A stretch of DNA of 64,000 bases, taken from the NCBI GenBank assembly GCA_951406725.2, contig OX597818.1:63922001-63986000 (forward strand), read 5' to 3'. The position numbers and the translations under genes were made by a program. The notes beneath the pieces were generated by a model, which did no database searches, was not told where the DNA came from, and saw nothing but the letters and a program-made list of their open reading frames with translations. This document shows, piece by piece, positions 10,480 to 63,048 of the stretch; the first letter of the stretch is position 1, and each line of letters opens with the position of its first letter. The DNA is from Octopus vulgaris. Its lineage: Eukaryota.

Positions 10480-10711
10480 CTCTTTTACCCTCTCTTTTAC
10501 TCTTTTACTTGTTTCAGTCGTTTGACTGTGGCCATGCTGGAGCACCACCTTTAGTCGAGCAAATCGACCCTAGGACTTATTCTTTGTAAGCCTAGTACTT
10601 ATTCTATCGGTCTCTTTTGCCGAACCGCTAAGTTACGGGGACGTAAACACATTAGCATCGGTTCTCAAGCGATGTTGGGGGACAAACACAGACACAAAAA
10701 CATACGCGCGC

Positions 10712-10777
<66 letters not shown>

Positions 10778-10941
10778 ACGATGGGCTTCTTTCGGTTTCC
10801 GTCATCCAAATCCACTCACAAGTCTTTGGTCGGCCCGAGGCTATAGTAGAAGACACCTGCCCAAGGTGCCTTGTAGTGGGATTGAACCCGAAATCATGTG
10901 GTTGATAAGCAAGCTACTTTCCACACAGCCACTCCTGCGCC
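10480..10941 (-). mobile_element. SINE family A, full length
   Basis: GGCGCAGGAGTGGCTGTGTGG head, internal (TA)n/(TG)n tract, tail GCATGGCCACAGTCAAACGACTGAAACAAG(TAAAAGAG)n. Confidence 0.9.
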
Positions 10942-13543: not shown

Positions 13544-13802
13544 TAGTAGAGATTGTTTGTCAACATTACATGGCAGTCCTGGTTTAGGACGACTGTTGCT
13601 GTAATTTAGCCCCAGGAGATATCATCTGCAGCGGGCTATACGACACGATCTGTGTCTTTATATTTTCTAACAAGGAAATCTACAACCTTATTTGAAAATA
13701 TAAGGACACAGATCGTGTCGTATAGTCAGCTGGAGACGATGTCTCCTGGAGCTAAATTACAGCAACATTAGTCCATGTTATGTTGGCAAAAAATCTTTAC
13801 TA
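13544..13802. mobile_element. foldback/MITE-like palindromic element
   Basis: Arms ~13546-13672 and ~13686-13800 are reverse complements (e.g. CTATACGACACGATCTGTGTC / GACACAGATCGTGTCGTATAG); TA at both ends is consistent with a Tc1/mariner-type TSD. Confidence 0.8.
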
Positions 13803-17592: not shown

Positions 17593-17972
17593 GGCGCAGG
17601 AGTGGATGTGTGGTAAGTAGCCTGCTTACCAGTCACATGGTTCCGGGATCAGTCCCACTGCGTGGCATCTCGGGCAAGTATCTTCTGCTATAGCCCCGGG
17701 CTGACCAATGACTTGTGAGTGGATTTGGTAGACGGAAACTGAAAGAAGCCTGTCGTATATATGTATATATATATATAAGTGTGTGTGAATATGTTTGTGT
17801 GTCTGTGTTTGTCCCCCTAGCATTGCTGGCGTGTTTACGTCCCCGTCACTTAGCGGTTCGGCAAAAGAGACCGATAGAATAAGTACTGCGCCGGGGTCGA
17901 TTTGCTCGACTAAAAGAGGTGCTCCAGCATGGCCGCAGTCAAATGACTGAAACAAGTAAAAGAGTAAAAGAG
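17593..17972 (+). mobile_element. SINE family A, full length
   Basis: Head GGCGCAGGAGTGG to tail AAGTAAAAGAGTAAAAGAG; candidate TSD ATATATGTATA at 17580-17590 and 17974-17984. Confidence 0.9.
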
Positions 17973-17984
17973 TATATATGTATA

Positions 17985-18182
17985 CTCTTTACTTGTTTCA
18001 GTCATTTGACTACGGCCATGCTAGAGCACCGCCTTTAATCGAGAAACTCGACCCCGGGAATTATTCTTTTGTAAGCCCAGTACTTATTCTATCGGTCTCT
18101 TTTGCCGAATCGCTAAGTAACGGGGACATAAACACACCAGCATTGGTTGTCAAGCAATGCTAGGGGACAAACACACACACGC

Positions 18183-18213
<31 letters not shown>

Positions 18214-18381
18214 TACGACGGGCTTCTTTCAGTTTCCGTCTACCAAATCCACTCACAAGGCTCAGAAGGTATTGGTCAGCCCGGGGCTATAGTAGAAGAC
18301 ACTTGCCCAAGGTGCCACGCAGTGGGACTGAACCCGGAACCATGTGGTTGATAAACAAGCTACTTACCACACAGCCACTCC
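17985..18381 (-). mobile_element. SINE family A, near full length
   Basis: Reverse-complement homologue of the preceding copy, arranged tail-to-tail. Confidence 0.9.
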
Positions 18382-19146
18382 ACATATGCAAATACATGTG
18401 TACATGAATCACGAGTTTCTAAATATATATGCGATCAAATTGTAAGACCAGAATTCCTATCCTTCGGGAAATAGAATAGTCGTCCGGGGCTTGCAATATA
18501 ACAGGGCATCATTACATCTACCAACTGCTATTCTCTGCATCTGGTAGATGGAAAGAATTCCAAGTCATGGGTTTCTTATGGGGAATCTTTGATGGTAAGC
18601 GTTTTATGAGGCTGGAATTCATATATTACTTGAGTTTCTTTGGCTGGCGTTTTATGACAGGCAGGGGAAAATTATGTTTATTGGTCCAATCATCACACTT
18701 GTAATAAATTAAGTTCTAACAATTTAGTGCCAATATCTATTCACCTCTAATTAAATTCGAATATAGTCACTTTTTTACAAAATATATTTATCTTTGGAAA
18801 GATAACGCAAAACTACTCAGGCAAAATGATTTGGGTTATTTAATTGTTTATACAATTATCTTTCAACTATTAACCGCATCAGAAAAGTAACACGATTACG
18901 AACTAATCATAAGAACACTTATTGATATACGAATCATAGTGCGGTGAAAGCAGATTAATATATGATAAGATTTGAATTTCCATTAGAAAAATAAACTGTT
19001 TATATTTAAGAATGAACTGATAATGCAAGACCATTGACAGCGCAAAAACATCATGGCAAAAAAAAATGACTAACAGAAATAGGCTTATAGTTATAAAAGG
19101 AAGAGTGGGAAAGGAGAGAAGCCTATGAAAAAATGAGACAGGGTTT

Positions 19147-19366
19147 CTCTTTACTCTTTTACTCTTTTACTTGTTTCAGTCATTTGACTGTGGCCATGCT
19201 GGAGCACCACTGGTAGTCGAGCAAATCGACCCCAGGACTTATTTTTTGTAAGCCTAGTACTTATACTATCGATCTATTTTGCTGATCTGCTAAGTTACGG
19301 GGACGTAAACACACCACCATCGGTTGTCAAGTGATGTTGGGGGGGGGGGCAAACACAGACATACAT

Positions 19367-19413
<47 letters not shown>

Positions 19414-19562
19414 TACGACGGGCTTCTTTCAGTTTCCGTCTACGAAATCCACTCGCAAGGCTTTGATCGGCCCGAGGCTATAGTAGAAGACACTTGTCCA
19501 AGGTGCCACGCAGTGGGACTGAACCCGGAACCATGCGGTTCGTAAGCAAGCTACTTACCACA
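19147..19562 (-). mobile_element. SINE family A
   Basis: Tail (CTCTTTTA)n, full body, head truncated at CTTACCAC. Confidence 0.9.
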
Positions 19563-19865: not shown

Positions 19866-20242
19866 GCAGGAGTGATTGTGTGGTAAGTAGCTTGCTTACC
19901 ATCCACATGGTTCAGGGTTCAGCCCCACTGCGTGGCACCTTGGGTAAGTGTCTTCTACTATAACCTCGGGCCGACCAAAGCCTTCTGGGTTAATTTGGTA
20001 GACGGAAACTGAAAGAATCCCGTCGTATATATGTATATATATATATACGTCTGTGTGTCTGTGTTTGTCCCCCAACATCGCTTGACAACCAATGCTGGTC
20101 TGTTTACGTCCCCGTAAATGAGACCGATAGAATAAGTGCAAGGCTTACCAAGAATAAGTCCTGGAGTCGATTAGCTCGACTAAAGGCGGTGCTCCAGCAT
20201 GGCCACGGCCAAATAACTGAAACATGTAAAAGAGGAAAAGAG
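19866..20242 (+). mobile_element. SINE family A
   Basis: GCAGGAGTGATTGTGTGG head to GGCGGTGCTCCAGCATGGCC tail. Confidence 0.9.
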
Positions 20243-20273
20243 TAAGGGGGAGTACAGGAAAACATTTATTTGT

Positions 20274-22675: not shown

Positions 22676-23382
22676 TTCGTCGTTATTCATAGTGCTAACG
22701 CATTTTACTTGTTAACACTAAATGCTTTTGGTTAAAATCGCCGAGCTCTTTATAATTCTACGTAAAAGGTAAGATATATATATCACCATTCATTTGCTTA
22801 AACGTTCCGTTATATGAAGTTATCAATAACTCAGTTTAGGGAAGTGTTAAATTTTCCATGTTCATATCATGTGAAACATTTCTTTTTAAAGGGACAACGC
22901 CTGCATTTTTGTAGCACTCTAAGTAGAAGTAGTAAACGAGTAAAATAATAGAAATTAATTAATATTTGCACGGAACATAATTAAATTAGAAAGGTTACAA
23001 CGATAAAAACACTCATTCAAATTATTATCTTGAAAATCATAAACAAGGCGATAGATCTCGCAGAAACGAAACATGTAAAGCATTTTTTTTTAAATATAAA
23101 AAGAAACAACATGTTTCCAATAAAAAATATATCGATTAAAAGAATCAGAATAAAGATTAAAACAAAAATGAAGCGAAAATTTTAAAATAAATGATGTAAA
23201 GATATGCACATCTAAAGAGCAACTTTTCAATATTACATCGATGATACCGATAAATGTTTAAACCTAATAGAACTTGCTATGAGCAGGAAGTAGTGTACCC
23301 AAGATAACAGTAAACTTGATATTAAATTGACGACAATAACAATTCAAATGATGTCAACTTAAATATATTGCAAACACATAAA

Positions 23383-23841
23383 GCGGCGAGCTGGCAGAAA
23401 CGTTAGCACGCCGGGCGAAATTCGTAGCCGTATTTTGTCTACCATTACGTTCGTAGTTCAAATTCCGCCGAGGTCGACTTTGCCTTTCATTCTTTCGTGG
23501 TCGGTAAATTAAGTAAAAGTTACGCACTGGGGTCGATGTAATCGACTTAATCCTTGTTTGTCCCCTCTGTGTTTAGCCCCTTGTGGGTAGTAAAGAAGTA
23601 TGTATAGAAGGGCGGCGAGCTGGCAGAATCGTTAGCACGCCGGGCAAAATGCGTAGCCGTATGTCGGCTGCCGTTACGTTCTCTCTTCAAATTCTGCCGA
23701 GGTTGTCTTTGCCTTTCATCCTTTCGAGGTCGATAAATTAAGTACCTGTTACGCACTGTGGTCGATATAATCGACTTAATCCGTTTGTCTGTCCTTGTTT
23801 GTCCCCTCTGTGTTTGGTCCCTTGTGGGTAGTAAGGAAATA
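23383..23841 (+). mobile_element. SINE family B dimer (23383-23598 and 23611-23841)
   Basis: Two copies, each starting GCGGCGAGCTGGCAGAA and ending TTGTGGGTAGTAA. Confidence 0.9.
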
Positions 23842-24859: not shown

Positions 24860-25030
24860 ACTCATCTAATGGTTTCAATCATTTTGACTGCGGCCATGCT
24901 GGATCACCGCTTTTACTCGAACAAACCGACGCCAGTACTTATTTTTTGTAAGCCTAGTACTTATTTTTATCGATATCATTCACCGAACCGCTAAGTTTCA
25001 GGGACGTAAACACACCAAAATCTGCTGTCA
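24860..25030 (-). mobile_element. SINE family A, diverged 3' half
   Basis: TTGACTGCGGCCATGCTGG...GGGACGTAAACACACC homology. Confidence 0.75.
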
Positions 25031-25249
25031 TGTAATAGTGGAGGACGAACTTAGGCACTCAAATACGTATATATATATACATATGCACACACACACACAT
25101 ATATATATGTGTGTGTGTGCGCGTGTACATAAGCACAGACACTCAGATACACACGTACACGTTTCTACAACCCTCACACACGCACACACATACACATATA
25201 AATATTTTCCATAAAATAACATTTCTACCAGTCTGTTTCATATTACTTG

Positions 25250-35098: not shown

Positions 35099-37398
35099 CG
35101 TTTGTGTGTGTGTCTATATTATATATATATAATTTTTTATTGCATTTGTTTCATATATGCTATGTGTATTCATTTTGTAGTACTGGCCTGCTTATTTTGT
35201 CTCAAGTTTATGGCAGTACAACGATTGTCTATTTATAGGATTCTCTTATTGATTTGAACTTTTCCACACACTCATATATATATATGTGAAAACACTTTAA
35301 TTTTGTGTTTGATGCATTTTCCAGCTGAGTAATGAAGAACGATAATTCTTTGGAAAGCTTCCCATCATGTAACGCAGAATGGACATAAAATAAATATCGG
35401 TAAATATATTTCAATTTATTTTCTTGCCAAATTTCCTGGCGTGCCCTTATATTGTTTTCATTTCAGAAAGAATACCAACGGAAAAAAGAAAGAAAATAAA
35501 ACTATCTCGAGAATTAACTGAAAGCCATTTTTATGAACTATTTTTCATGACTGAAAGAAAATCTAATATCAAGTGTCATACTATATTGATATTAAGATAG
35601 TGTTAAATGATTATATTAATTTTTGATTCTAAATTAGAAATACGTAATTTATTGCAAAATGAGGTTGAAAGATTTATGAACATTAATTAGGAGCGATAAA
35701 CATATTTAATATTGATTAGAATTTCACTACTCGTATTTAATTTCCGTCATCAGACAGCCTTTTTATATCATAATAATATAGCAAACGATATTTAGATATA
35801 ACTAATCTCGTTAATTATTCTTGTATAATAAGAGCTCTTTATATTCTGTGAGAAGCGATGTATGCTACGCTAATATTGTAAATTCTACAATAAACCATGC
35901 TTATTTTTATTTTTTAATATTTTATTATAATGTGTAATCGAGTTAGCATTGACTCATTTTACAGAGATATGGCTAAAAAACTTGCGTATTCAAATATTTT
36001 TAAGTATACACTTCTTTTCAGAATACTAGTTCACAACCTCCATTATATAATGTAATTAATTTGACCATGAGGTTAAAATGATATTATCTATGTTGCTGTA
36101 CAATACAAAAAAGTTAGGGTTTATATTACCAATTAATTTGAAACCTTATATATAATGAATAACATTGAAACCAACACTGCTCATGCTCATTCACGAGCTT
36201 ACATCTACTTGCTTTCTTCATAATAGGATAAACACCGGTAGACATTAAGTAATATATATTAAGTAACATATATATATATATATTTGAGCGTACTGGAACC
36301 AAATTTATAAAGAAGAGAATATAGAAAAACAAGCTAATTAATTTTACGCGCTAATACAATTAATCAGTTTAATTACCTCGTACACTAATTTTGATTATTT
36401 ATAAGTTTTGTTCTGGAAAAATTTCGATTACGGGTGCAGATTACACGAGGGCGATATTGGCTTGCTTTTGAAAATTAATTGACGTGTCGTTGTTGGTATT
36501 TAAGGATTCGAGATTGCAGTTCAACAATGACGAGATGGAAAATATTGATATTTTGTGGTAAATATGAGATAGATTTTATTCTTTTCATTATAAAGGCAAT
36601 TGACGACCAATGCAAAATTATCAACTGAAATTAGGTAATTATCTCTGCTATTGGTAAGATAATGCCATGGAATTATGAAGGGTGTGCGACTTAGTGTAAG
36701 TGAATAATGGAAAGTTTTCAAGGGATGAATAACTTGCGGTAACAAAAACAAATGAAAGTATAAAGATCATACATAGAGGTAAATGCTTCCATGCCCAACA
36801 CATTCTTACTTAGAAGTCTGGACACAAACTGACATATATAGCTTGCAATGCATAGCATAGAAATAGCGATTATGCTTATAGGATCACAGGATAAACCACA
36901 AAGTCCACAACATCGCAAATCATTCAAACTGTAACTTTCACAGTAATCCTTTGGGAAACGTATAAGTGACCAAAGATATTCAACGGATCAAATATAAAGA
37001 AAGCTTTTCCATTGAAATAGGTTATAGGTGAGGTACTGAAAGCCAAGTGCAGGTAGTATTCTTTACTGAAATCCAAGTTGGATAGTATCCTGAAATGTAC
37101 GAGAAGGTTATCCCGAGTAGTGAGCTAGACATGGCAGGATGATGAACGAAGTAAAAGCATTACTGTTGAAGCTATGAGAAATACAATTGGCATCATTCTC
37201 AAGCAGAGAACTGCTTGGCATTCTAGTTGAGATCATCAAGTGAAGAAAAGGATCACATTGCCCCGTTTAAGTAAAGTAGTGCTAAAATTAAGGAACTGTC
37301 CTACAGAATATAGTAGACTGCAACATATTTACCCTGAACAATATCAAATGGAATTACGTCTCGTTACTGATCCGCTGCAAAATATTTCACTCAGGTGT

Positions 37399-38007
37399 TT
37401 CTTTTTTATTTCATTTTTAAAAATTTCATCTAGTTTCAGCTCACGAGCTGTGGCCATGCTGGGGCACCGCCATTTGAAGTTGCTACATGATTTTACTTCA
37501 CGAATGCTTTTTAGCAATTGACAGTTGGTGCATGAGAGAGTTTGATGCAGCTGCCCTCATCTCCACCTCCTGCCGCGAAGTTGGTTCATCTGGGACACCT
37601 GACAGTAAAAGGTCTAGCTTTATTTTGAAGACACCGACATCCAACCCATGCAGGTCCTTCGGGAGGATAATAAAGAGCTGTGGACCTCTGAAGCTTAGGC
37701 TATTGCAGTATCTTGTCCTACATCTTGATGGCAAATTTTGAGATCTTGGCACCCAGTTCTAGTATTTTATAACTCTCGATGACAAAGTTTGGGATAAATC
37801 TTTCCAGGATCTTCCAAATGTATATTCTGGCATATCTTTCTCGCCTACGCTCTAAGGAATAGAGTCGCAATCTCTTGAGTATTTCCCAATAGCTTATATG
37901 CTGCATAGAGGCTATCTTTTTCGTGTAGCTTCGTTGGATTGCTTCAAGTTCTGTGATTAATTTGACACTGGTTGGTGACCATAGTTGAGAGCAATAGTCA
38001 AAGTGGT
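37399..38007 (-). mobile_element. CR1/L2-like LINE 3' fragment (ORF2 C-terminus plus 3' UTR), pseudogenised
   Basis: Peptides HFDYCSQLWSP, SYWEILKRLRLYSLERRRERY and FKIKLDLLL..VPDEP are typical of the post-RT region of CR1-group LINEs; frameshifted; short 3' UTR with a stem-loop. Confidence 0.8.
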
Positions 38008-38200
38008 ATATATATATATATATATATATAATTTATAAAAATATGGTAAAGTAAAAGAATTCACTTTACCACATTTTTATAAATTAATACTTCAAATATA
38101 CCGTAAATGGTCTTTACATACCGAATACTGCTTGGTCGAATTTATTAACAATTAATTAATTCGACCCCCTTTTTTGATAACTATATATATATATATATAC

Positions 38201-38328
38201 ACCACTTTGACTATTGCTCTCAGCTATGGTCACCAACCAGTGTCAAATTAATCTCAGAACTTGAAGCAAACCAACGAAGCTACACGAAAAAGACAGCCTC
38301 TATGCAGCATATAAGCTATTGGGAAAGA

Positions 38329-38331
<3 letters not shown>
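38201..38331 (+). mobile_element. inverted duplicate of the 5'-most 131 bp of the CR1-like fragment
   Basis: Reverse complement of 37877-38007; translates HFDYCSQLWSPTSVKLISELEANQRSYTKKTASMQHISYWERL. Confidence 0.85.
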
Positions 38332-38374
<43 letters not shown>

Positions 38375-39381
38375 ACTTTGTTTTGAGCGCATCTCCCCTG
38401 TTTGTTGATTTTTGCGATTGTTGAAACGAAGAAACAGCCTGCTTCAGTGAAAATTTGCTTTCGGCCGAAACACTTGTGACGTTTCAAAAAGTTTCTATGT
38501 GTAAAACATTTGTCACTTGAAATCCTTCCTCGTTCAGGACATTCATTCAGTCGACCTCCCGAACGAATGAAGGTATCGTGAAAATGGCGAATACTTTGAA
38601 GTCGATGTAAGTGCAAACGTTTAAAAGTAAGTGAATAAAATAATATTGCAAAATTCAGGTTTCTTTTACTTCTTATACTTACATATATATGTATGTGTGT
38701 GTGCGCAAATGTGTGTGCACATACACACACATACACATACACACGCGCACACATACATATATGTACACATGTGCGAGGACAGACGGCCTGCGAGTGTCGG
38801 TAATGTGGGAAAACTGGAGATATTTTAATTTTGATTGTATAATTCATGTTGATATTCATGAGTTACAGCTTAAAAAGAAATGATTCCCTGGCCAATAAGT
38901 TAAGCACACGGTCCAAATAAAAAATAAGTTTCTACCAAGCAAAGTTCTCAGTTTGCTGTCACTTGAAATGATACACTGTTTTTCACCAAAATATTGAATT
39001 TACGACGTATTCTAAGAAATTATCTTACCTGACGTAATTCTGTTCCTTTTAATGATATCCCAGGTCATATTTGAAGAATCAGCATGTTGTCCCCTAAAAT
39101 GTTGAACTTATCAAATCTGATCTAATCAACACATAAGTATTTTTCTGTAGAGTTACATGCAACCACGCAAAGTATATTATTACCACCACACCAGAAAGAG
39201 AACACGAAAGATCTGCAAAAGTAGCTCGCACTGTTCAAACAAGATAGGCTTCCGAAAAATCGCTTTAATTGTCACACCCACAGATACAGAAACAAAGGGC
39301 AAAACAATTAAGCCATTAGCATGACATACGGAAGAATATGCCCTATCTCATAAAGTGTTTTAACGGTACTGAAACATCTAA

Positions 39382-39856
39382 GGCGACGAGCTGGCAGAAA
39401 TGTTAGCACGCCGGGCGAAATGCGTAGCAGTATTTTGTCTACCGTTACGTTCTGAGTTCAAATTCCGCCGAGATCAACTTTGCCTTTCATCCTTTCGGGG
39501 TCGAAAAAATAAGTACCAGTTACGCACTGGATCGATGTAATCGACTTAATCCGTCTGTCTGTCCTTATTGTCCTCTCTGTGTTTAGTCTCTTGTGGGTAG
39601 TAAAGAAATAGGTACTGAAACATCTAAGGCGGCGAGCTGGCAGAAATGTTAGCACGCCGGCCAAATGCGTAGTTGTATTTTGTCTGCCGTTACGTTCTGA
39701 GTTCAAAATCCGCCGAGGTCAACTTTGCCTTTCATCCTTTCGGGGTCGAAAAAATAAGTACCAGTTACGCAATGGGGTCGATGTAATCGACTTCATCTGT
39801 TTGTCTGTCCTTACTGTCCTCTCTGTGTTTAGTCCCTTGTGGGTAGTAAAGAAATA
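39382..39856 (+). mobile_element. SINE family B tandem dimer, period 246 bp
   Basis: GGTACTGAAACATCTAA occurs at 39365, 39611 and 39857, bracketing two near-identical copies. Confidence 0.92.
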
Positions 39857-40598
39857 GGTACTGAAACATCTAAACTTTTAACTTATCTCAATTAACAATC
39901 GAAACAATTCCATATAATGGCTGAAGAGTATGATTTTTATTCATCAATATCTGCATACCACAATACTAGACAGAGAAACCATGCCCATCATCAATACATA
40001 CGAAAGAGTAACAAGTGCAGGACAGACATCTCGACACGGACAGAATTTAAGGCCTAGCTGGTGTGAACATAACTTATATGGAAATCATTTCTAATTCTGT
40101 CAAGATCTCTGACAAATGTGGCTTTCCAATTAAATCGGTGCAAGAGTTCATAGAGCGCACGACCTCCATTAAAAGATCAAAGACAATTTATCGAGCGTAG
40201 CTTTTGTAGCTTCTGTGATAATAATGAATGCCTTGCCCTTTGTGCTTGATTTCAAACGTGTGTGAAAAACACATACATAACACAATATATAAAGCCACAA
40301 ATTTAAATATATTGGAAGACAAATACCCAGTCTTCATGACAAGATGCTAACCTATATGTTCTCAAGAAGTTCCATGTTCAATAACCGACAAAATCATATG
40401 GATGTTACACAACGAATCAAGAACTGTGTATTTATAGGGAAAATATAAAGAGCATATCTGATTAAGAAATCAACCGCAAGAGTAGTACATATTTCAGGCA
40501 TGCATACAGCTGCGACATATAAGTCTGTTCCATAGTATCTTGTCATACTCGTTAAGAAAATCATCCCAAACAGGAAGAAGTCCTGCCGGGCTTTTTAC

Positions 40599-40980: not shown

Positions 40981-42759
40981 ACATACAAGCATACATACTC
41001 ACACACACACACACAAACACATATGAATTAGTTAGATAGACAGATATATACATACATACATAAAACACACATTTACATATATGTAGGCACGTGTGTTTGT
41101 GTATTACATATTTGCTATAACATTTTTGTTCCAAGAGCTGTAGATAGTTATATATTTCATTGAATGACATATGTAGAAAGTTGTGAATATTGAACGCCTT
41201 AATACTGCGTGTACATGAATAAAATATTAGATAATAACGCTAATCTACAGGGGCAGAAATTAATGCTAAATAGTTTCGTTTCTGTTTCATTTGATGTTCA
41301 ATGCGGCGATTTACGATAATGTAGGAGTGATATTAAGTTTCGTATTAATAGGATTAGAATCAAATAAACTGATGTCGCGGTTCTGCTGAGTATTGAATTC
41401 AAAGAATATGTTTGTTGCTTGGCTATTAAAATGCGTATTAGAATGTGTATGAGTAGATTAATGTAAGGGAGAGAAAAGACATAATTTCACTTTACAATAC
41501 TTAGGAATTCAGTATCTTATAATGTGAGGCAATAATAGCGGAATTGCTTCCAAACCCATTTTCTATTGATACAAGTTTAATGTAATATCCAGTCACATTA
41601 GGCTTCAAATTGGCCATTTCCTACATTTTATAAACATCATTGTTTATTAAGATATCTCGTTCAGAGCTCAGCTAATAAGGAATATATACATAAGAAGCTA
41701 CTCGCCAGATTTTTATATTTTCTACTGTGCTTCCACGCTTTTTCCAATAACTAAATTTTACCTGATCAATACGTCTGAGAATTTGGTTCTTGTGTGATTT
41801 ATTTAATGCGTTTCTTAATTTGTGGGAAAATCTCGAATGAATGCTCTTCAGATGTTCAGACGTAATACAACAGATACCACTTCTTATATAATTTATAAGT
41901 AAGTACATCATTAGTTGCCTATTCACCTCCAAGGGCAATAAATCAATAATTCATATATTCATTATAATTATATTTTTAAACTGATATATTTGGGCATAAC
42001 AACTGTGTAGACATAGTTCTTTATAAAGTTTCATTATTGAAATCTGCATTTTGCAGCTAATAGTTTGATTATTTTTATGTAAAGTAATCAATATATTACA
42101 AGTCCGGTGCATAATTAATGTATACACAATAAACGTATTCTGCTATAACTTTTAACAGATTGTTAATACACTTCCATGCATTGTCGAAAAGATAGCAAAT
42201 TATAAATTAAAGTAACAAATTATAGAAATACAAATAATGAATTTTTATTGATGTGCATATATCCCTTTTCTCGAAATCAGTGCCGCAGATGGAAATAATT
42301 GAAATCATTTCATAATGCACCAAAATGAAGATATGCAGCAAGGGACGATGATGAGAATTTTGGAATGGTTTTACTGAGGTAGAATATGAAGAGCATCATA
42401 ACGTGTGTATCGTTATATTACAAATAAGATGACAGCAAACAGAAACAGCCCTAATAGAAGAAGATCACTTTATAGAAGTCACATATTATTTAACAGTAAA
42501 ATCCACTCTATGGCCTGGGAAACACGTTGTCCCAAATCTCATATTATAGATAAAATTGCTTCACACATTCTATATATTATATAATCACTACATTATGACA
42601 GAATATTGAATCACATTGTATAATATCGTAGGGAGAGCAAGCATTTGATTTACGGATACCATCACAATAACAAGTGTTCGCAGTTAACCGTAAGATAGAA
42701 GCGAGCCTTTAAAAATAAGCTTGCTACAAATTCTTCTACAACAACAAAATTTATAGACT

Positions 42760-44071
42760 CATTTTTCTTTTCACCAAAAGTTGTGATATAACAAGTGTAA
42801 CAAATTATAGAGGAATTACTCTGGTCCCAACTGCAGCAAATGTTTGTAACAAACTTCTGATTAATAGGATGGTGCCAATGCTCGATCCCCTTCTTCGTAA
42901 GAATCAGGATGTATTTAAAACGGGCCGGTCAACAACTACTCAAATTCTCTCCATCCATCGCATACTGGAAGGAATGAAAATGTTTAACAATCTGCTTTGT
43001 CGACTTTAGCAAAGCATTTGATTACATCAGCTGAGGAATTCTTGCACTCCACGGTATTCCTCCCAGGATTGCTGATGCTGCCAGAGCGCTGTACATAAAC
43101 ACCACTGCCTCAGTTACATCTCCTGATGGAGAGAGTAATTTCTTTGAAGTTGAAGCAGGTGTTCTGCAGGGTGACACACTCGCTGCTCTCTTATTCATTT
43201 TTGTTTTCGGCTATGTTCTAAGCATTTCTTTAGACAGTATGGATGAAAAGGGACTCCTTTTGAACACCCATCAGAGCAGTCGGCATTGTGCACAATATTT
43301 AATTGATTTTGACTTTGCTGACGATCTTGCCTTTATATCCCATTGTATTAATGATGTAGAATATTTGTTACAAGCACTGGAAAAAGCAGCAAATCAGGTC
43401 GGCCTTTACTGTAACGAGAGTAAGATAGAATTTATCACGAGTTTATCAAGACCTCCTCCTAGTTAACTGAACATAAATGGCTCAATAATATATCAATCAA
43501 AACTTTGACGATTTTAAATATCTTGTATCACACATAGTAGACTCTGAAAAGGACTTTCGCATCAACAATGCTCTTGCTTGGGATACATGTAACAGACTTG
43601 ATAAGATCTGACATTCCATCCACGTTAAAAGTTAAAATATTTACAACACTGATTGAGCTGATCCTTATCTCTGTATCAGAGATCTGTACCTTATCGGCTC
43701 TCTTAGAAAAACAAGTTGATGTAACATATACGAACCTGCTCAGAAAGATACAATACAACATTCGGAGATCACGCCCAACACTTAGTAACAACTACGGAAT
43801 TACAATACAAATATCCCTCAAGCTGAAATCAGAAACGGCTTCAATATGCTGGCCCCTGTCATCGAACTAAGAAAGAGCTTATTTCATCTCTGATCCTATG
43901 GCATCCCTCTGTATGTTTATCTCCAGGAAACTAACATTTCCAGATACTATATCTCGGGACTCAGGGCTGGATATAAGAGATCTGAACACAGCATTGCAGA
44001 CTGTGTAGTGGGGAAAGGGATTGTCAATGGAGTTCCGACCAGTCTTAAGTTGGTTGAAGGATGATGATGAT
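42760..44071 (+). pseudogene. decayed RTE/RTEX-like LINE (RT domain to 3' tail)
   Basis: Frameshifted motifs NYRGITL, KNQ..FKTGRSTT.QI, FVDFSKAFD, AGVLQGDTLA, DFDFADDLA and FKYL; ends in (GAT)n at ~44059-44070. Confidence 0.85.
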
Positions 44072-44558
44072 AGATTCATGCCCATGTAAGCAGTATATCA
44101 AAAGCTAAAAACATTTTTCATTTTTTGTCATAGGTTGACGTCGTAAAATTTAGGAGAGGTGTTGTTCGATTACATTGACCCCAGCTCATGCTTTTTTGAC
44201 AGAGGGAAGAAAAAAAAGGGATTTAAGCACAGAATGTATAGATATATGATTAAAAGTTTCCGGTAATTTGCAATGTTTGTAACTTACGTACAAATGAAGA
44301 ACAATCTTTGGAAGGGATTAGCTGTTTAAATGAAACCATGTATGTGAGAGGCAGATTAAAACCTACAATTTTATTGAGAAAGAAATGAGGAAACTGTAAG
44401 GTAACCATTGTGAAATTTCAACTTAATATGTAGTCCAACAAAAGATATTATAAATCATATTTTTCGATGCGCTGACAATTCTCAAATCCAATATCAATAA
44501 ATGTTTCCAGTTTGGCCTATCAGTATCTAATCAGGGCAAATATATCATTTTAGAACAA

Positions 44559-44780
44559 GCTGGCAGAAACGTTAGCACACCGGAAGAAATGCGTAGCCGT
44601 ATTTCGTCTGCCGTTACGTTCTGAGTTCAAATTCCGCCGAGGTCGACTTTGCCTTTCATCCTTCCGGGGTCGATAAATTAAGTACCAGTTACGCACTGGG
44701 GTCGATGTAATCGACTTAATCTCTTTGTCTGTCCTTGTTTGTCTCCTTTGTGTTTAGCCCCTTGTGGGTAGTAAATAAAT
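44559..44780 (+). mobile_element. SINE family B with 19-bp TSD
   Basis: ATATATCATTTTAGAACAA at 44540-44558 and 44781-44799. Confidence 0.92.
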
Positions 44781-45889
44781 ATATATCATTTTAGAACAAA
44801 TGGGACATTTTAGTTTAGGTCATTTGCGTTTCAATAGTAAAACAAAAGAAGAGAAAAATAATTATATTATAATAAAATGGAAGGAAATTAAATTATGAAA
44901 AATGTATAGGTATAATATAAGATCGAATATGTATAATTGCCCGAAACGTGGCCTAAATTCCCTCGTGTAGTACTGCATCACACGTTAAGTCAGTTGATGC
45001 TGTATATCTGAAGAATTCTAGTATGTCACCTACGGTTATTACGTCTTCTCAATCCACGAGATTCGTTAAGCATTGAAACCAAATCACGCTTGCATCTGTT
45101 ACTGATCTTTTGTAACTAAATTCAGGCATATGCTTTCGCTTTTTAGATATATGCTGGCTTTCGGTTTGAACTCATTTAATTTTGTCGACCCTTAAAAGTT
45201 ACATTACATGGCATTGTCTCTCTAACAATATATTTCTTTCTGTTTTATTTCTTCGTTTTCTATTATTTTTTTATCCTACTGTTTCACACAGCGGAGCGTA
45301 GAAGAAAGGAACGTCTACTTTCTGATTTTCATTTTTCTATAAGTGAGCTTTATGTAGTTAGATTGTTTCACATTCAATATTCCCTCTGGTTGTTCTAATA
45401 TATTATACGTAATATCATTTGTGACGAATACAATTTACGGATGTTACTTGAAGCTGCATCGAAATGTCTAAAATTACAGAGGGCTCTCTAAATGTGTTTG
45501 AAGAATCATGTTTATATTAAGTGTCTACGGCCAGTAGAGTAAGCTTCAAATTTGCATGAAATGAAGAATTATGTTGATGGAAAAGTTATCGCTTGGTCAA
45601 GGTTACATACGCTGCATGTTATATGCACATCCATGATTTCCTCCAATATAAATAGCTGTGAATTCTATATTTTTGATATCCTTAGTAGAATCTATAGAAT
45701 TTCAAAATTCGAATCTGCTATGCACACGATCTTCGCAACTACTACGTAACCGAAAAAGTTCTCATTAGTCTCTCTCAGTATCATTTTTTCTTACTTTTCG
45801 AGCAGGATTATATGTTATTAACCGCGAAATGACTCACTGAAAACTTCGCTTTTGTCTTTTATGTAATCAACAAAAACTTTTAGGGCACT

Positions 45890-52760: not shown

Positions 52761-54139
52761 GAGACAGACCCTATACGTGGCCTTCATCGACCTGGCTAAG
52801 GCGTTCGACTCAGTCAGCAGGGAGGGGCTGTTTGCGCTCCTGGGTAGGATAGGTTGCCCTCCCAGACTGCTGAAACTCATTACCTCCTTTCACGACGGTA
52901 TGCAGGGAACAGTGCAGTTTGACGGATCGCCCTCGGAGTTGTTCCCCATCCAGAGTGGAGTGAAACAGGGTTGCGTTCTGGCGCCGACGCTCTTCGGAAT
53001 TTTCTTCTCCCTTGTCCGGTCCTATGCCTTCAGAACGTCCGACGACGGAGTGTTCCTCCACACCAGAGCTGATGGTGGATTGTTCAATCTTGCGCGCCTC
53101 AGAGCTAAGACCAAAGTCCGTCAGGTGCTGATCAGAGAGATCCTCTTTGCTGACGATGCCGCCCTAACATCACACAACCAACCGGGTCTCCAGAGACTGG
53201 TCAGCTCCCTGGCGGATGCCTGCCAAGAGTTCGGCCTTACCATCGGCCTGAAAAAGACAGAGATCATGGGCCAGGACGTCGGAGGGGTCCCCAGCATCAG
53301 TGTCGGCGACCACAGCTTGCAGGTGGTGAACGAGTTCACTTACCTGGGATCGACGGTCTCCAGCAGCCTGTCCCTCGAGCCGGAGCTGAACAGATGGATT
53401 CGGAAGGCTGCTGCTGCCATGGCTAAGCTCTCCAAGAGAGTGTGGGAAAACAACATGCTCACAATAACCACCAAGATCGCAGTGTACCGAGCCTGCGTGC
53501 TGAGCACCCTACTCTACGGCAGCGAGAGCTGGACAACATACACCCGGCAAGAATGCCGCCTCAGCGGCTTCCACATGCGGTGTCTTCGACGGATCCTTGG
53601 CATCTCCTGGAAGGACCGAGTACCAAACGGAGTCATCCTAGAACAGACTAATATGCTAAGCATGCATGCCTTCCTCGTGCGGAGACGACTGTGCTGGCTC
53701 GGACACGTCTGCCGCATGCAGGACGGTCGCATGCCTAAAGACATCCTGTACAGCGAACTCACCACGGGATCCCGACCCAAGGGACGTCCACAGCTACGAT
53801 ACAGGGATGTGTGCAAGCGCGACGTGAGGACTGCCAACATCTGTGTGGACACGTGGGAGGTAACAGCTGCTGAGCGCTCTGCCTGGTGTCGGACAGTGAG
53901 GGAAGGCATTTCCATGGCTGAGGAAAGGAGAGCACAGCTGTGGTCGGACAGGCGGGACAGGAGGAGGACAACTGCAGCAATACCCCACACGTACCCATCG
54001 AGGTTCGTGTACAGCAACTGTACCAGGGACTGCCACTCTAGAATTGGACTGTTCAGTGACAGCAGACGCTGCTCATCATCAAAGTAGGCCCCACCCTTGG
54101 CGCGACCCATTGTCTATCAAGACAGACGGGAAGAGAGAG
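52761..54139 (+). mobile_element. 5'-truncated RTE (BovB-like) LINE
   Basis: GC-rich block in AT-rich surroundings; RT ORF; 3' UTR hairpin TGTCT-ATCA-AGACA; weak candidate TSD ATATGTATGTA at 52748-52758 and 54140-54150. Confidence 0.92.
52777..54087 (+). CDS. RTE-clade LINE reverse transcriptase, C-terminal part (open frame, lacks endonuclease and N-terminus)
   Basis: AFIDLAKAFDSV, GVKQGCVLAPTLF, LFADDAAL, FTYLGS, LLYGSESWT, RL.WLGHV.RM...R.PK..LY.EL..G.R..GRP; the terminal zinc-finger-like motif is degenerate (YSNC...DSRRC). Confidence 0.9.
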   Translation: MAFIDLAKAFDSVSREGLFALLGRIGCPPRLLKLITSFHDGMQGTVQFDGSPSELFPIQSGVKQGCVLAPTLFGIFFSLVRSYAFRTSDDGVFLHTRADGGLFNLARLRAKTKVRQVLIREILFADDAALTSHNQPGLQRLVSSLADACQEFGLTIGLKKTEIMGQDVGGVPSISVGDHSLQVVNEFTYLGSTVSSSLSLEPELNRWIRKAAAAMAKLSKRVWENNMLTITTKIAVYRACVLSTLLYGSESWTTYTRQECRLSGFHMRCLRRILGISWKDRVPNGVILEQTNMLSMHAFLVRRRLCWLGHVCRMQDGRMPKDILYSELTTGSRPKGRPQLRYRDVCKRDVRTANICVDTWEVTAAERSAWCRTVREGISMAEERRAQLWSDRRDRRRTTAAIPHTYPSRFVYSNCTRDCHSRIGLFSDSRRCSSSK

Positions 54140-62787: not shown

Positions 62788-62857
<70 letters not shown>

Positions 62858-62977
62858 TTATATAGAAGGAGCTTCTACAGGACTAGAACTGTTTCATTCA
62901 AGAGAAATCTTCAGGAAGCACTGAAGATTTCTCTTGAATGAAACACTTCTAGTCCTGTAGAAGCTCCTTCTATATAA
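62858..62977. repeat. near-perfect palindrome (two ~57-bp arms, 6-nt loop GAAGCA)
   Basis: 62858-62914 is the reverse complement of 62921-62977 with one mismatch. Confidence 0.95.
62871..62919 (-). ncRNA. type I hammerhead ribozyme motif (Penelope-like)
   Basis: GCUUC-CUGAAGA-U.UUC(UCUU)GAA.U-GAAA-CAG(UUCUAGUC)CUG-UA-GAAGC: full conserved core, 5-bp stem I, 4-bp stem III, GUA triplet. Confidence 0.75.
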
Positions 62978-63048
62978 TAAATTAATTTTACTCTGCTATG
63001 TATTGAGTACCTTATTTACTGTGGTTAACCCCGAATCAACCCGGGACC

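What the first reader, a model, noticed from the sequence alone, without database searches (positions are those of the whole stretch)
37433..37471. SINE-A and a CR1/L2-like LINE share a 3' tail with a covarying stem-loop
Seen: LINE 3' UTR (minus) GGCGGTGCCCCAGCATGGCCA-CAGCT-CGTG-AGCTG-AAAC versus SINE-A tail GGTGCTCCAGCATGGCCA-CAGTC-AAAT-GACTG-AAAC (e.g. minus copy ~19173-19209). Same length, a 5-bp stem kept by two compensatory pair changes, and a different 4-nt loop. Known: many tRNA-SINEs borrow the 3' stem-loop of a partner LINE for RT recognition (e.g. eel UnaL2/UnaSINE). Inference: this identifies the mobilising LINE lineage for SINE-A and suggests recognition by stem shape plus the upstream motif rather than by loop sequence.
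Basis: partly seen in the sequence, partly recalled or inferred. Interest (0 to 1): 0.7.

Follow-up and report, generated by a model that had tools for sequence, protein, structure and literature searches.

The report
Octopus SINE borrows LINE two-hairpin tail
A common short jumping element in this likely octopus DNA ends in nearly the same 39-base tail as a group of longer, enzyme-coding jumping elements, a tail predicted to fold into two hairpins, so it likely borrows their copying enzyme, which is a well-known kind of partnership.

Summary
Observation confirmed. The tail at 37433-37471 (-) matches the SINE-A majority tail at 30 of 39 bases (2e-7 expected by chance). It lies 21 nt after the ORF2 stop of a 5'-truncated CR1-type LINE whose named relatives are octopod. 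Corrections: (1) the 'upstream motif' is itself a predicted hairpin (H1, loop NCCA), nearly invariant, so loop reading is not excluded. (2) The 'covarying' hairpin H2 differs at 8 of 8 central bases, which is one block replacement and statistically weak (42/500 shuffles). (3) SINE-A's TCCA loop matches sister LINE families (one from Octopus vulgaris) rather than this copy's CCCA, so the tail identifies the lineage, not this family. Best model: stringent trans-mobilisation by this lineage's ORF2p, with H1 likely the identity element and H2 read by shape. CR1-SINE tails with compensatory stems are published for bivalves; I found no report of this octopod pair. New member of a known kind; interest 0.3.

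The parts
37493..38005 (-). 5'-truncated, decayed 3' end of ORF2 (RT thumb/C-terminal region) of a CR1-type LINE; two frameshifts and a 9-nt deletion relative to P0003; original stop TAA at 37495-37493
   Evidence: tblastn of the full-length endonuclease-RT protein P0003: 91% over 79 aa and 82% over 82 aa; all 19 amino-acid differences are single-base; P0003's terminal FVK-stop lies in another frame of the window
37472..37492 (-). 21-nt LINE-specific 3' UTR spacer, not shared with SINE-A
   Evidence: sequence; no LINE-body/SINE-body homology (282 of 500 shuffles score as well)
37452..37471 (-). Hairpin H1 of the shared tail: 3 bp, G.G mismatch, 4 bp including a G-U pair, loop CCCA (TCCA in SINE-A); predicted identity element
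   Evidence: folding; 4 of 7 pairs never vary in 7 tails; seen in antisense translations of other LINE copies
37437..37450 (-).
37398..37436 (-). AAAC followed by a degenerate A-rich terminal repeat (TGAAA/TAAAAA-type units), unlike the SINE-A 8-mer
   Evidence: sequence
10492..10941 (-). SINE-A copy, full length; tail 10511-10549, then TAAAAGAG repeats
17593..17973 (+). SINE-A copy; tail 17915-17953; flanked by an 11-nt TA-rich direct repeat (candidate target-site duplication)
17983..18385 (-). SINE-A copy, tail-to-tail with the previous one; tail 17995-18033
19151..19562 (-).
19866..20245 (+). SINE-A copy; tail 20185-20223, with H2 damaged by three changes
24864..25108 (-). Older 5'-truncated SINE-A copy (16% from majority); tail 24872-24911 with a 1-nt longer H2 loop, followed by TAGATGA as in the LINE
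38197..38332 (+). Inverted second copy of the LINE's 5'-most 135 nt, starting at the same breakpoint after a (TA)n run
   Evidence: arms 37876-38026 / 38182-38332, 96% complementary

Best explanation
SINE-A ends in a 39-nt tail shared with a CR1-type LINE lineage of likely octopod origin, and it is likely copied by that lineage's ORF2 protein, which is predicted to bind a two-hairpin tail with the near-invariant first hairpin likely carrying identity and the second likely read by shape. Steps: (1) shown: the tail is the 3' end of this LINE, 21 nt after the ORF2 stop, and its H1 part recurs in other copies and sister families with different UTR lengths. (2) predicted: the tail folds as H1 (mismatched stem, loop NCCA), one A, then H2 (5-bp stem, free loop), AAAC and short terminal repeats. 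(3) inferred: SINE-A got the tail by a template switch just after a body segment that it shares with SINE-B, which has a different tail. (4) inferred from eel and zebrafish L2 experiments: Pol III SINE RNA is bound in trans by the basic region between the endonuclease and RT and is copied by target-primed reverse transcription starting in the terminal repeats. (5) inferred: the direct partner is probably a sister family with a TCCA loop rather than this copy's family. Rough odds: tail from this lineage 0.95; mobilised by it 0.9; H1 the main determinant 0.55; sister family as direct partner 0.6.
For: Tail identity 30/39. Full-length EN-RT relative P0003 sits in a 55-row clade with SH-aLRT 100. 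Of 7 antisense LINE translations with 21 or more residues upstream, 4 carry ML[EV]HH (each at most 1% of 300 shuffles against the better-matching tail; 0 in 66,051 control residues) at 48, 69, 69 and 105 nt from the ORF core, against 79 nt in the window. P0116 matches across H1 and H2 (4 base changes over 11 codons, 0 of 200 shuffles), and P0114 is collinear but weaker. Loop base: P0114 shares C with this copy; P0118 and P0121 (O. vulgaris) share T with SINE-A; P0116 and P0122 have A. Ages are compatible: about 5% nonsynonymous decay in the LINE, 5.7-8.3% in 7 of 9 SINE-A copies, so 8 of 8 central changes are not decay (about 2e-10). The tail folds better than shuffles (z -2.3 LINE, -3.2 SINE; -2.6 for the whole UTR). 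The distant clade member L001 has two abutting hairpins before its terminal repeats. A conserved basic block IPRDRKILMR lies between EN and RT. SINE-A and SINE-B share about 50 nt just before their tails (0, 3 and 33 of 1000 shuffles for three copies).
Against: No binding or retrotransposition data. There is only one LINE tail at DNA level; the other copies are seen only as translations from spurious ORFs, and 2 of 7 (P0115, P0123) show no tail. H1 shows no compensatory change, so its fold rests on energy and conservation. H2 covariation is not significant (42/500). L001 was missed by the blind covariance model, its sequence match is at chance level (790 and 877 of 2000 shuffles), its UTR does not fold better than shuffles (z -0.27), and the descriptor that finds it was tuned after seeing it. 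In P0122 the translation implies a broken H2. No LINE with SINE-A's H2 and 8-mer repeat was seen. Target-site duplication was clear in only 1 of 5 SINE copies.
Confidence: 0.7

Rival explanations
1. An unseen sister family carries exactly SINE-A's tail (TCCA loop, CAGTC/GACTG stem with AAAT loop, TAAAAGAG repeats) and reads both loops strictly. The window pair then shows divergence between LINE families, not tolerance by one enzyme.
For: The H1 loop base, H2 and the repeat unit all differ from this copy. Sister families with TCCA exist (P0118, P0121). Zebrafish L2 proteins reject non-cognate loops (PMC4176376). Thirteen recently active CR1 families are listed for O. vulgaris (PMC13282606).
Against: The H2 of the TCCA families is not visible, because their ORFs start inside H1. 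SINE copy 24911 has a longer H2 loop. P0116 pairs an ACCA loop with an H2 about as close to the LINE (4 changes) as to the SINE (5). This rival is compatible with steps 1-4 of the best explanation and differs only on whether H2's loop matters.
Confidence: 0.4
2. One reading: this LINE family itself mobilises SINE-A, reading H2 stem shape plus an unstructured upstream motif, with no loop reading.
For: Similar ages; same length and spacing; H2 stem kept.
Against: The upstream motif folds into a hairpin with an invariant CCA loop. The diagnostic loop base separates this family (C, also in P0114) from SINE-A (T). The terminal repeats differ.
Confidence: 0.15
3. The tail in the LINE is a 5'-truncated SINE fragment that landed after ORF2.
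For: SINE-A is abundant (9 copies in 64 kb).
Against: No SINE body upstream. 8 of 8 central differences cannot be decay. Different terminal repeat. The H1 signature occurs next to the ORF end in 4-5 other LINE copies, two of them at an identical 69-nt spacing.
Confidence: 0.02
4. The tail is a relic of SINE-A's origin, and present-day mobilisation is by another LINE with relaxed recognition of the terminal repeats.
For: RTE elements are abundant in octopus (PMC9115989, PMC8967140 passages) and occur in this window (52762-54087).
Against: Both hairpins are retained in young SINE copies; the lineage has near-contemporary copies and an intact relative (P0003).
Confidence: 0.07

Closest known systems
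BivaV-SINE2 / BivaCORE-SINE1 with CR1-14_CGi (Nishihara 2016, PMC4824008); Vhc_1 SINEs (Matetovici 2016, PMC4758252); bivalve HCD SINE partners (Martelossi 2024, PMC11481361)
   Same: Mollusc tRNA-SINE sharing a short 3' tail (35-61 bp, 72-95% identity in PMC11481361) with a CR1-group LINE; predicted stem-loops with compensatory changes; tails exchanged between SINE bodies.
   Different: By eye, the tail sequence is unrelated to the BivaV-SINE2/BivaCORE-SINE1 tails in the supplement. Martelossi 2024 finds the partners to be mostly CR1-Zenon, which is reduced or absent in cephalopods (PMC10294476). Here the host is likely an octopod and the tail has two abutting hairpins.
Eel UnaL2/UnaSINE1 and zebrafish ZfL2-1/ZfL2-2 (Hayashi 2014, PMC4176376)
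   Same: Stringent-type 3' stem-loop plus short terminal repeats; a basic region between EN and RT is present in P0003 and relatives.
   Different: L2 clade, one stem-loop, with loop specificity shown by experiment. Here the LINE is CR1-type with two predicted hairpins, and nothing has been tested.
Amniote CR1 3' end (hairpin plus octamer microsatellite; Suh 2014, PMC4316615)
   Same: Hairpin followed by short repeats as the RT recognition site; SINE-A ends in an 8-nt repeat.
   Different: Invertebrate lineage forming its own clade with an extended C-terminus; I did not compare the tail sequences.
Octopus tRNA-SINEs OK/OR1/OR2 (Ohshima and Okada 1994; seen only as citations) and the tRNA-Core/tRNA-Deu classes (PMC8967140)
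   Same: Abundant octopus tRNA-headed SINEs; SINE-A may well be one of them.
   Different: The visible part of the 2013 table of SINE/LINE pairs lists no octopus pair (PMC3747384).

Membership tests
CR1-clade LINE | ORF2 with apurinic-type endonuclease and RT | tested here: met
   Met in the 86%-identical relative P0003 (PF14529 + PF00078); the window holds only the C-terminal ~165 codons, with no Pfam hit
CR1-clade LINE | RT phylogeny groups with named CR1 references, apart from L2, Crack and Zenon | tested here: inconclusive
   Own clade of 55 of 126 rows (SH-aLRT 100) nested among unlabelled CR1-looking elements; no named references were available; reading it as CR1 rather than L2 rests on a recalled C-terminal pattern
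CR1-clade LINE | 3' UTR hairpin followed by short tandem repeats; heavy 5' truncation (PMC4316615) | tested here: met
   the repeats in this copy are degenerate
CR1-clade LINE | ORF1 type and 5' UTR | not testable with these tools
   not in the window; no DNA for P0003
tRNA-derived SINE (SINEBase definition, PMC3531059) | Under 700 nt, non-coding, interspersed multicopy | tested here: met
   about 380-450 nt; 9 copies in the window
tRNA-derived SINE (SINEBase definition, PMC3531059) | Internal Pol III promoter (A and B boxes) in a tRNA-like head | tested here: inconclusive
   B-box-like and A-box-like motifs each in 3 of 4 heads (consensus recalled); ARAGORN and Rfam found nothing; transcription untested
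Stringent SINE/LINE pair | Shared 3'-terminal sequence lying in the LINE 3' UTR | tested here: met
Stringent SINE/LINE pair | Conserved stem-loop in the shared tail | tested here: met
   Predicted in both; covariation support is weak
Stringent SINE/LINE pair | Same terminal repeat unit as the direct partner | tested here: not met
   SINE-A TAAAAGAG versus degenerate TGAAA/TAAAAA units in this copy; this argues for a sister family as direct partner, not against the lineage
Stringent SINE/LINE pair | Overlapping activity ages | tested here: inconclusive
   about 5% versus 6-8%, from one LINE copy against a protein of unknown species
Stringent SINE/LINE pair | Tail-dependent trans-mobilisation | not testable with these tools
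   needs an assay
Octopus OR1/OR2 CORE-SINE | CORE domain and identity to the published consensus | not testable with these tools
   No sequence found in the supplements searched; a CORE-like look after the head is recalled only

The most novel reading that the evidence does not exclude
An unnamed, widespread CR1-type clade (extended C-terminus) uses a modular two-hairpin 3' handle with divided roles: H1's loop and mismatch are a family barcode (C/T/A-CCA among octopod families, wholly different in distant L001), while H2 is a generic shape element whose top can be swapped as a block. A major octopus SINE captured this handle. The family variants would give a natural panel for testing the bipartite stem/loop recognition model outside the L2 clade and for naming the enzyme behind the octopus SINE expansion.
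Probability: 0.3. Interest if true: 0.55.

Novelty: new member of a known kind. Interest (0 to 1): 0.3.

Why it matters
SINEs make up about 11.6% of the O. vulgaris genome (PMC13282606), and my searches found no named partner LINE for them. This pins one abundant family to a specific LINE lineage with an intact ORF2 relative, and gives concrete mutants to test (H1 loop, G.G mismatch, H2 loop). The principle itself, including compensatory stem changes in mollusc CR1/SINE tails, is already published, so a specialist would not be surprised.

Tried and rejected
Tail pattern scan of genome contigs: 0 hits. The protein scan there gave 80 loci, apparently eukaryotic contamination in prokaryotic bins (inferred); of the 75 used, only L001 and L002 fall in the clade and only L001 reaches the 3' end. 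No other UTR resembles the tail (best 14 of 24 matches). The covariance model over 26 loci gave nothing below E 3.2. Sense C-terminal query P0002: no candidates. The profile of antisense ORFs returned only 4 of its own members. Rfam, ARAGORN and Pfam on the fragments: nothing. The ESM Atlas gave only generic EN-RT clusters. Assigning antisense ORFs to families by back-translation was mostly ambiguous; P0118 and P0123 lean to the P0005 type and P0122 to the P0003 type. Motif searches in papers and supplements found no printed copy of the tail. Rejected: SINE fragment insertion; decay as the cause of H2 differences; treating the H2 covariation as independent evidence; L2 assignment (tentatively). 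No structure or complex prediction was run, because the question is RNA recognition.

Full report
Observation. The 39 nt at 37471-37433 (minus strand) are as quoted. Scanning both strands with this tail finds six SINE-A tails at 24-31 of 39 matches and a background of 23 or less. The match to the majority of five SINE tails is 30 of 39, with 2.3e-7 expected in the window. A covariance model built from the seven tails finds no eighth copy. Of nine SINE-A copies, six carry the tail, one is cut by the window start and two stop at the internal microsatellite.

The LINE. Upstream of the tail lie two frameshifted pieces without Pfam hits. A search with the first piece returned 111 longer proteins. 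The best, P0003, is a 1033-aa endonuclease-RT protein, 91% and 82% identical to the two pieces. The named hits are from Argonauta hians and Octopus sinensis and Octopus vulgaris, so the window is likely octopod (inferred). P0003's terminal residues and stop are encoded in another frame of the window, which places the original stop at 37495-37493, 21 nt before the tail. All 19 amino-acid differences from P0003 need one base change each, about 5% of nonsynonymous sites, as expected for neutral decay. Seven of nine SINE-A copies are 5.7-8.3% from their majority and two are 16-19%. In an RT tree of 126 rows (72 from 75 of the 80 loci, 53 proteins, one RTE outgroup), P0003, P0005, P0012, L001 and L002 fall in a 55-row clade with SH-aLRT 100. 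It lies among elements that look CR1-type to me (recalled pattern); no named references were available, so the clade name is provisional.

Is the tail the LINE's own? There is no SINE body upstream of it (282 of 500 shuffles score as well), and the terminal repeat differs. I therefore searched with the stop-free antisense ORF 37478-37738, because mis-called antisense genes of other copies can read on into the tail. This gave 13 hits, of which I fetched 12. P0117 and P0126 are spurious and P0119 was not fetched, leaving 10 true antisense homologues. Three of these have too little N-terminal extension. Of the other seven, four carry ML[EV]HH, the antisense reading of the tail's first half (at most 1% of 300 shuffles each against the better-matching tail; 0 occurrences in 66,051 control residues), at 48, 69, 69 and 105 nt from the ORF core, against 79 nt in the window. 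P0116 follows the whole tail (4 base changes over 11 codons, 0 of 200 shuffles). P0114 is collinear with the window in another frame but weaker (P 0.02-0.06). P0115 and P0123 show nothing.

Structure. The tail folds as two abutting hairpins in the LINE and in the isolated SINE tails (z -2.3 and -3.2; whole UTR z -2.6). In two of three longer SINE contexts H1 is out-competed by flanking pairings while H2 persists. H1 (37471-37452) has 3 bp, a G.G mismatch, 4 bp and the loop CCCA (TCCA in SINE-A). It differs from the SINE majority by that single base, and 4 of its 7 pairs never vary, but none covaries. All 8 central bases differ. That is not decay (about 2e-10) and is strongly clustered (about 5e-6), but as covariation it is one event: 42 of 500 shuffles reach it, and 1 in 9 random replacements would keep two pairs. 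It is best read as a block replacement that kept length and stem. The antisense translations show the first loop base of H1 as C in P0114 (like this copy), T in P0118 and P0121 (like SINE-A) and A in P0116 and P0122. This makes a sister family the more likely donor.

A distant relative. L001 (40% identity to P0003) has, 41 nt after its stop, a hairpin closed by TGGT/GCCA that abuts a 5-bp hairpin GAGCT/GGCTC, followed by terminal repeats. A descriptor finds it in 0 of 5000 shuffles of that UTR and only 4 times in 841 kb of loci, but its tolerances were set after seeing L001. The blind model missed it, sequence alignment is at chance level and the UTR's folding z is -0.27. It is a lead only.

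Mechanism. In zebrafish L2s the region between endonuclease and RT binds the tail; stems can be swapped but loops cannot (PMC4176376). With H1 recognised, the pair fits the known rule instead: the conserved loop is H1's. P0003 and relatives have a conserved basic block at about residues 335-350, a candidate tail-binding region (inferred). SINE-A shares about 50 nt with SINE-B immediately before their different tails (0, 3 and 33 of 1000 shuffles), consistent with tail capture by template switching. I commit to trans-mobilisation by this lineage, with H1 as identity element and H2 as shape element (0.7 overall). The main rival is an unseen exact-match sister family that reads both loops.

Comparison with the literature. 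Nishihara 2016 already reports bivalve SINEs sharing CR1 tails with compensatory stem changes, and Martelossi 2024 extends this to several LINE clades. The bivalve tails I saw are unrelated in sequence (by eye). Eight searches found no description of this octopod pair. Repbase, Dfam, Ohshima and Okada 1994 and 2005 and Albertin 2015 were not consulted, so it may be annotated there. What I saw of each paper: PMC4824008, passages, section 11 and part 3 of supplement 2 (supplement 1 could not be searched); PMC4758252, passages and a supplement search (one file not searched); PMC4176376, abstract, passages and section 19; PMC11481361, PMC10294476, PMC8967140, PMC4316615 and PMC3747384, passages; PMC3531059, passages (no supplement held); PMC13282606, first third of the text and the supplement list only; PMC9115989, passages and a search of 4 of 8 listed supplements (two more were too large); PMC5786205, passages and a supplement search; all others, search listings only. 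The unseen supplements of PMC9115989 and PMC13282606 could hold octopus repeat sequences that bear on novelty.

Verdict. Real feature; interpretation partly supported and refined; new member of a known kind; interest 0.3. The boldest reading, a two-hairpin handle with divided roles across an unnamed CR1-type clade, has probability 0.3 and interest 0.55.

Noticed in passing
window 37876-38380: The LINE's 5'-most 135 nt are repeated in inverted orientation (38197-38332, 96%), both copies starting at the same base after a (TA)n run. The same ACCACTTTG junction recurs at 38370 and an AT-rich hairpin (38029-38086) lies between the copies. Possibly a fold-back or template-switch event with microhomology at a TA-rich target; unexplained.
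   Followed up: partly
window e.g. 44548-44785, 39380-39620, 23382-23600 versus SINE-A 3' body: SINE-B shares about 50 nt with SINE-A just before their different tails, including a GTCGA-N5-TCGAC hairpin with different loops; this marks a likely tail-swap point. SINE-B's partner LINE was not found.
   Followed up: partly
window 39365-39873: Tandem SINE-B pair separated and flanked by the same 17-nt repeat, the TSD-(SINE-TSD)n layout described in bivalves (PMC11481361).
   Followed up: no
window 17593-18385: Two SINE-A copies tail-to-tail forming an about 790-nt inverted repeat with TA-rich junctions; a potential long double-stranded RNA if transcribed.
   Followed up: no
window 24864-24911: An old SINE-A copy continues with TAGATGA shortly after GAAAC, as the LINE does; it may represent an older subfamily closer to this LINE's end.
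   Followed up: partly
window 52762-54087 and 42719-43870: RTE-like LINE remnants (clade recalled): a 441-aa open RT-containing frame (Pfam RVT_1, E 2e-18) and a fragmented one.
   Followed up: no
window 62853-62982 and 13587-13774: Long palindromes (62-nt arms, 97%, 6-nt gap; 89-nt arms, 88%), MITE-like or fold-back.
   Followed up: no
SINE-A interior, e.g. window 19345-19415: Every full SINE-A copy carries an internal (TA)n/(TG)n microsatellite of variable length, and two copies end there.
   Followed up: no
P0102; L001-L080: An O. sinensis predicted protein begins with about 65 residues of this LINE's ORF2 (likely mis-annotation or exonisation). Eighty loci in prokaryotic genome bins hold animal-type LINE ORFs, likely host contamination.
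   Followed up: no
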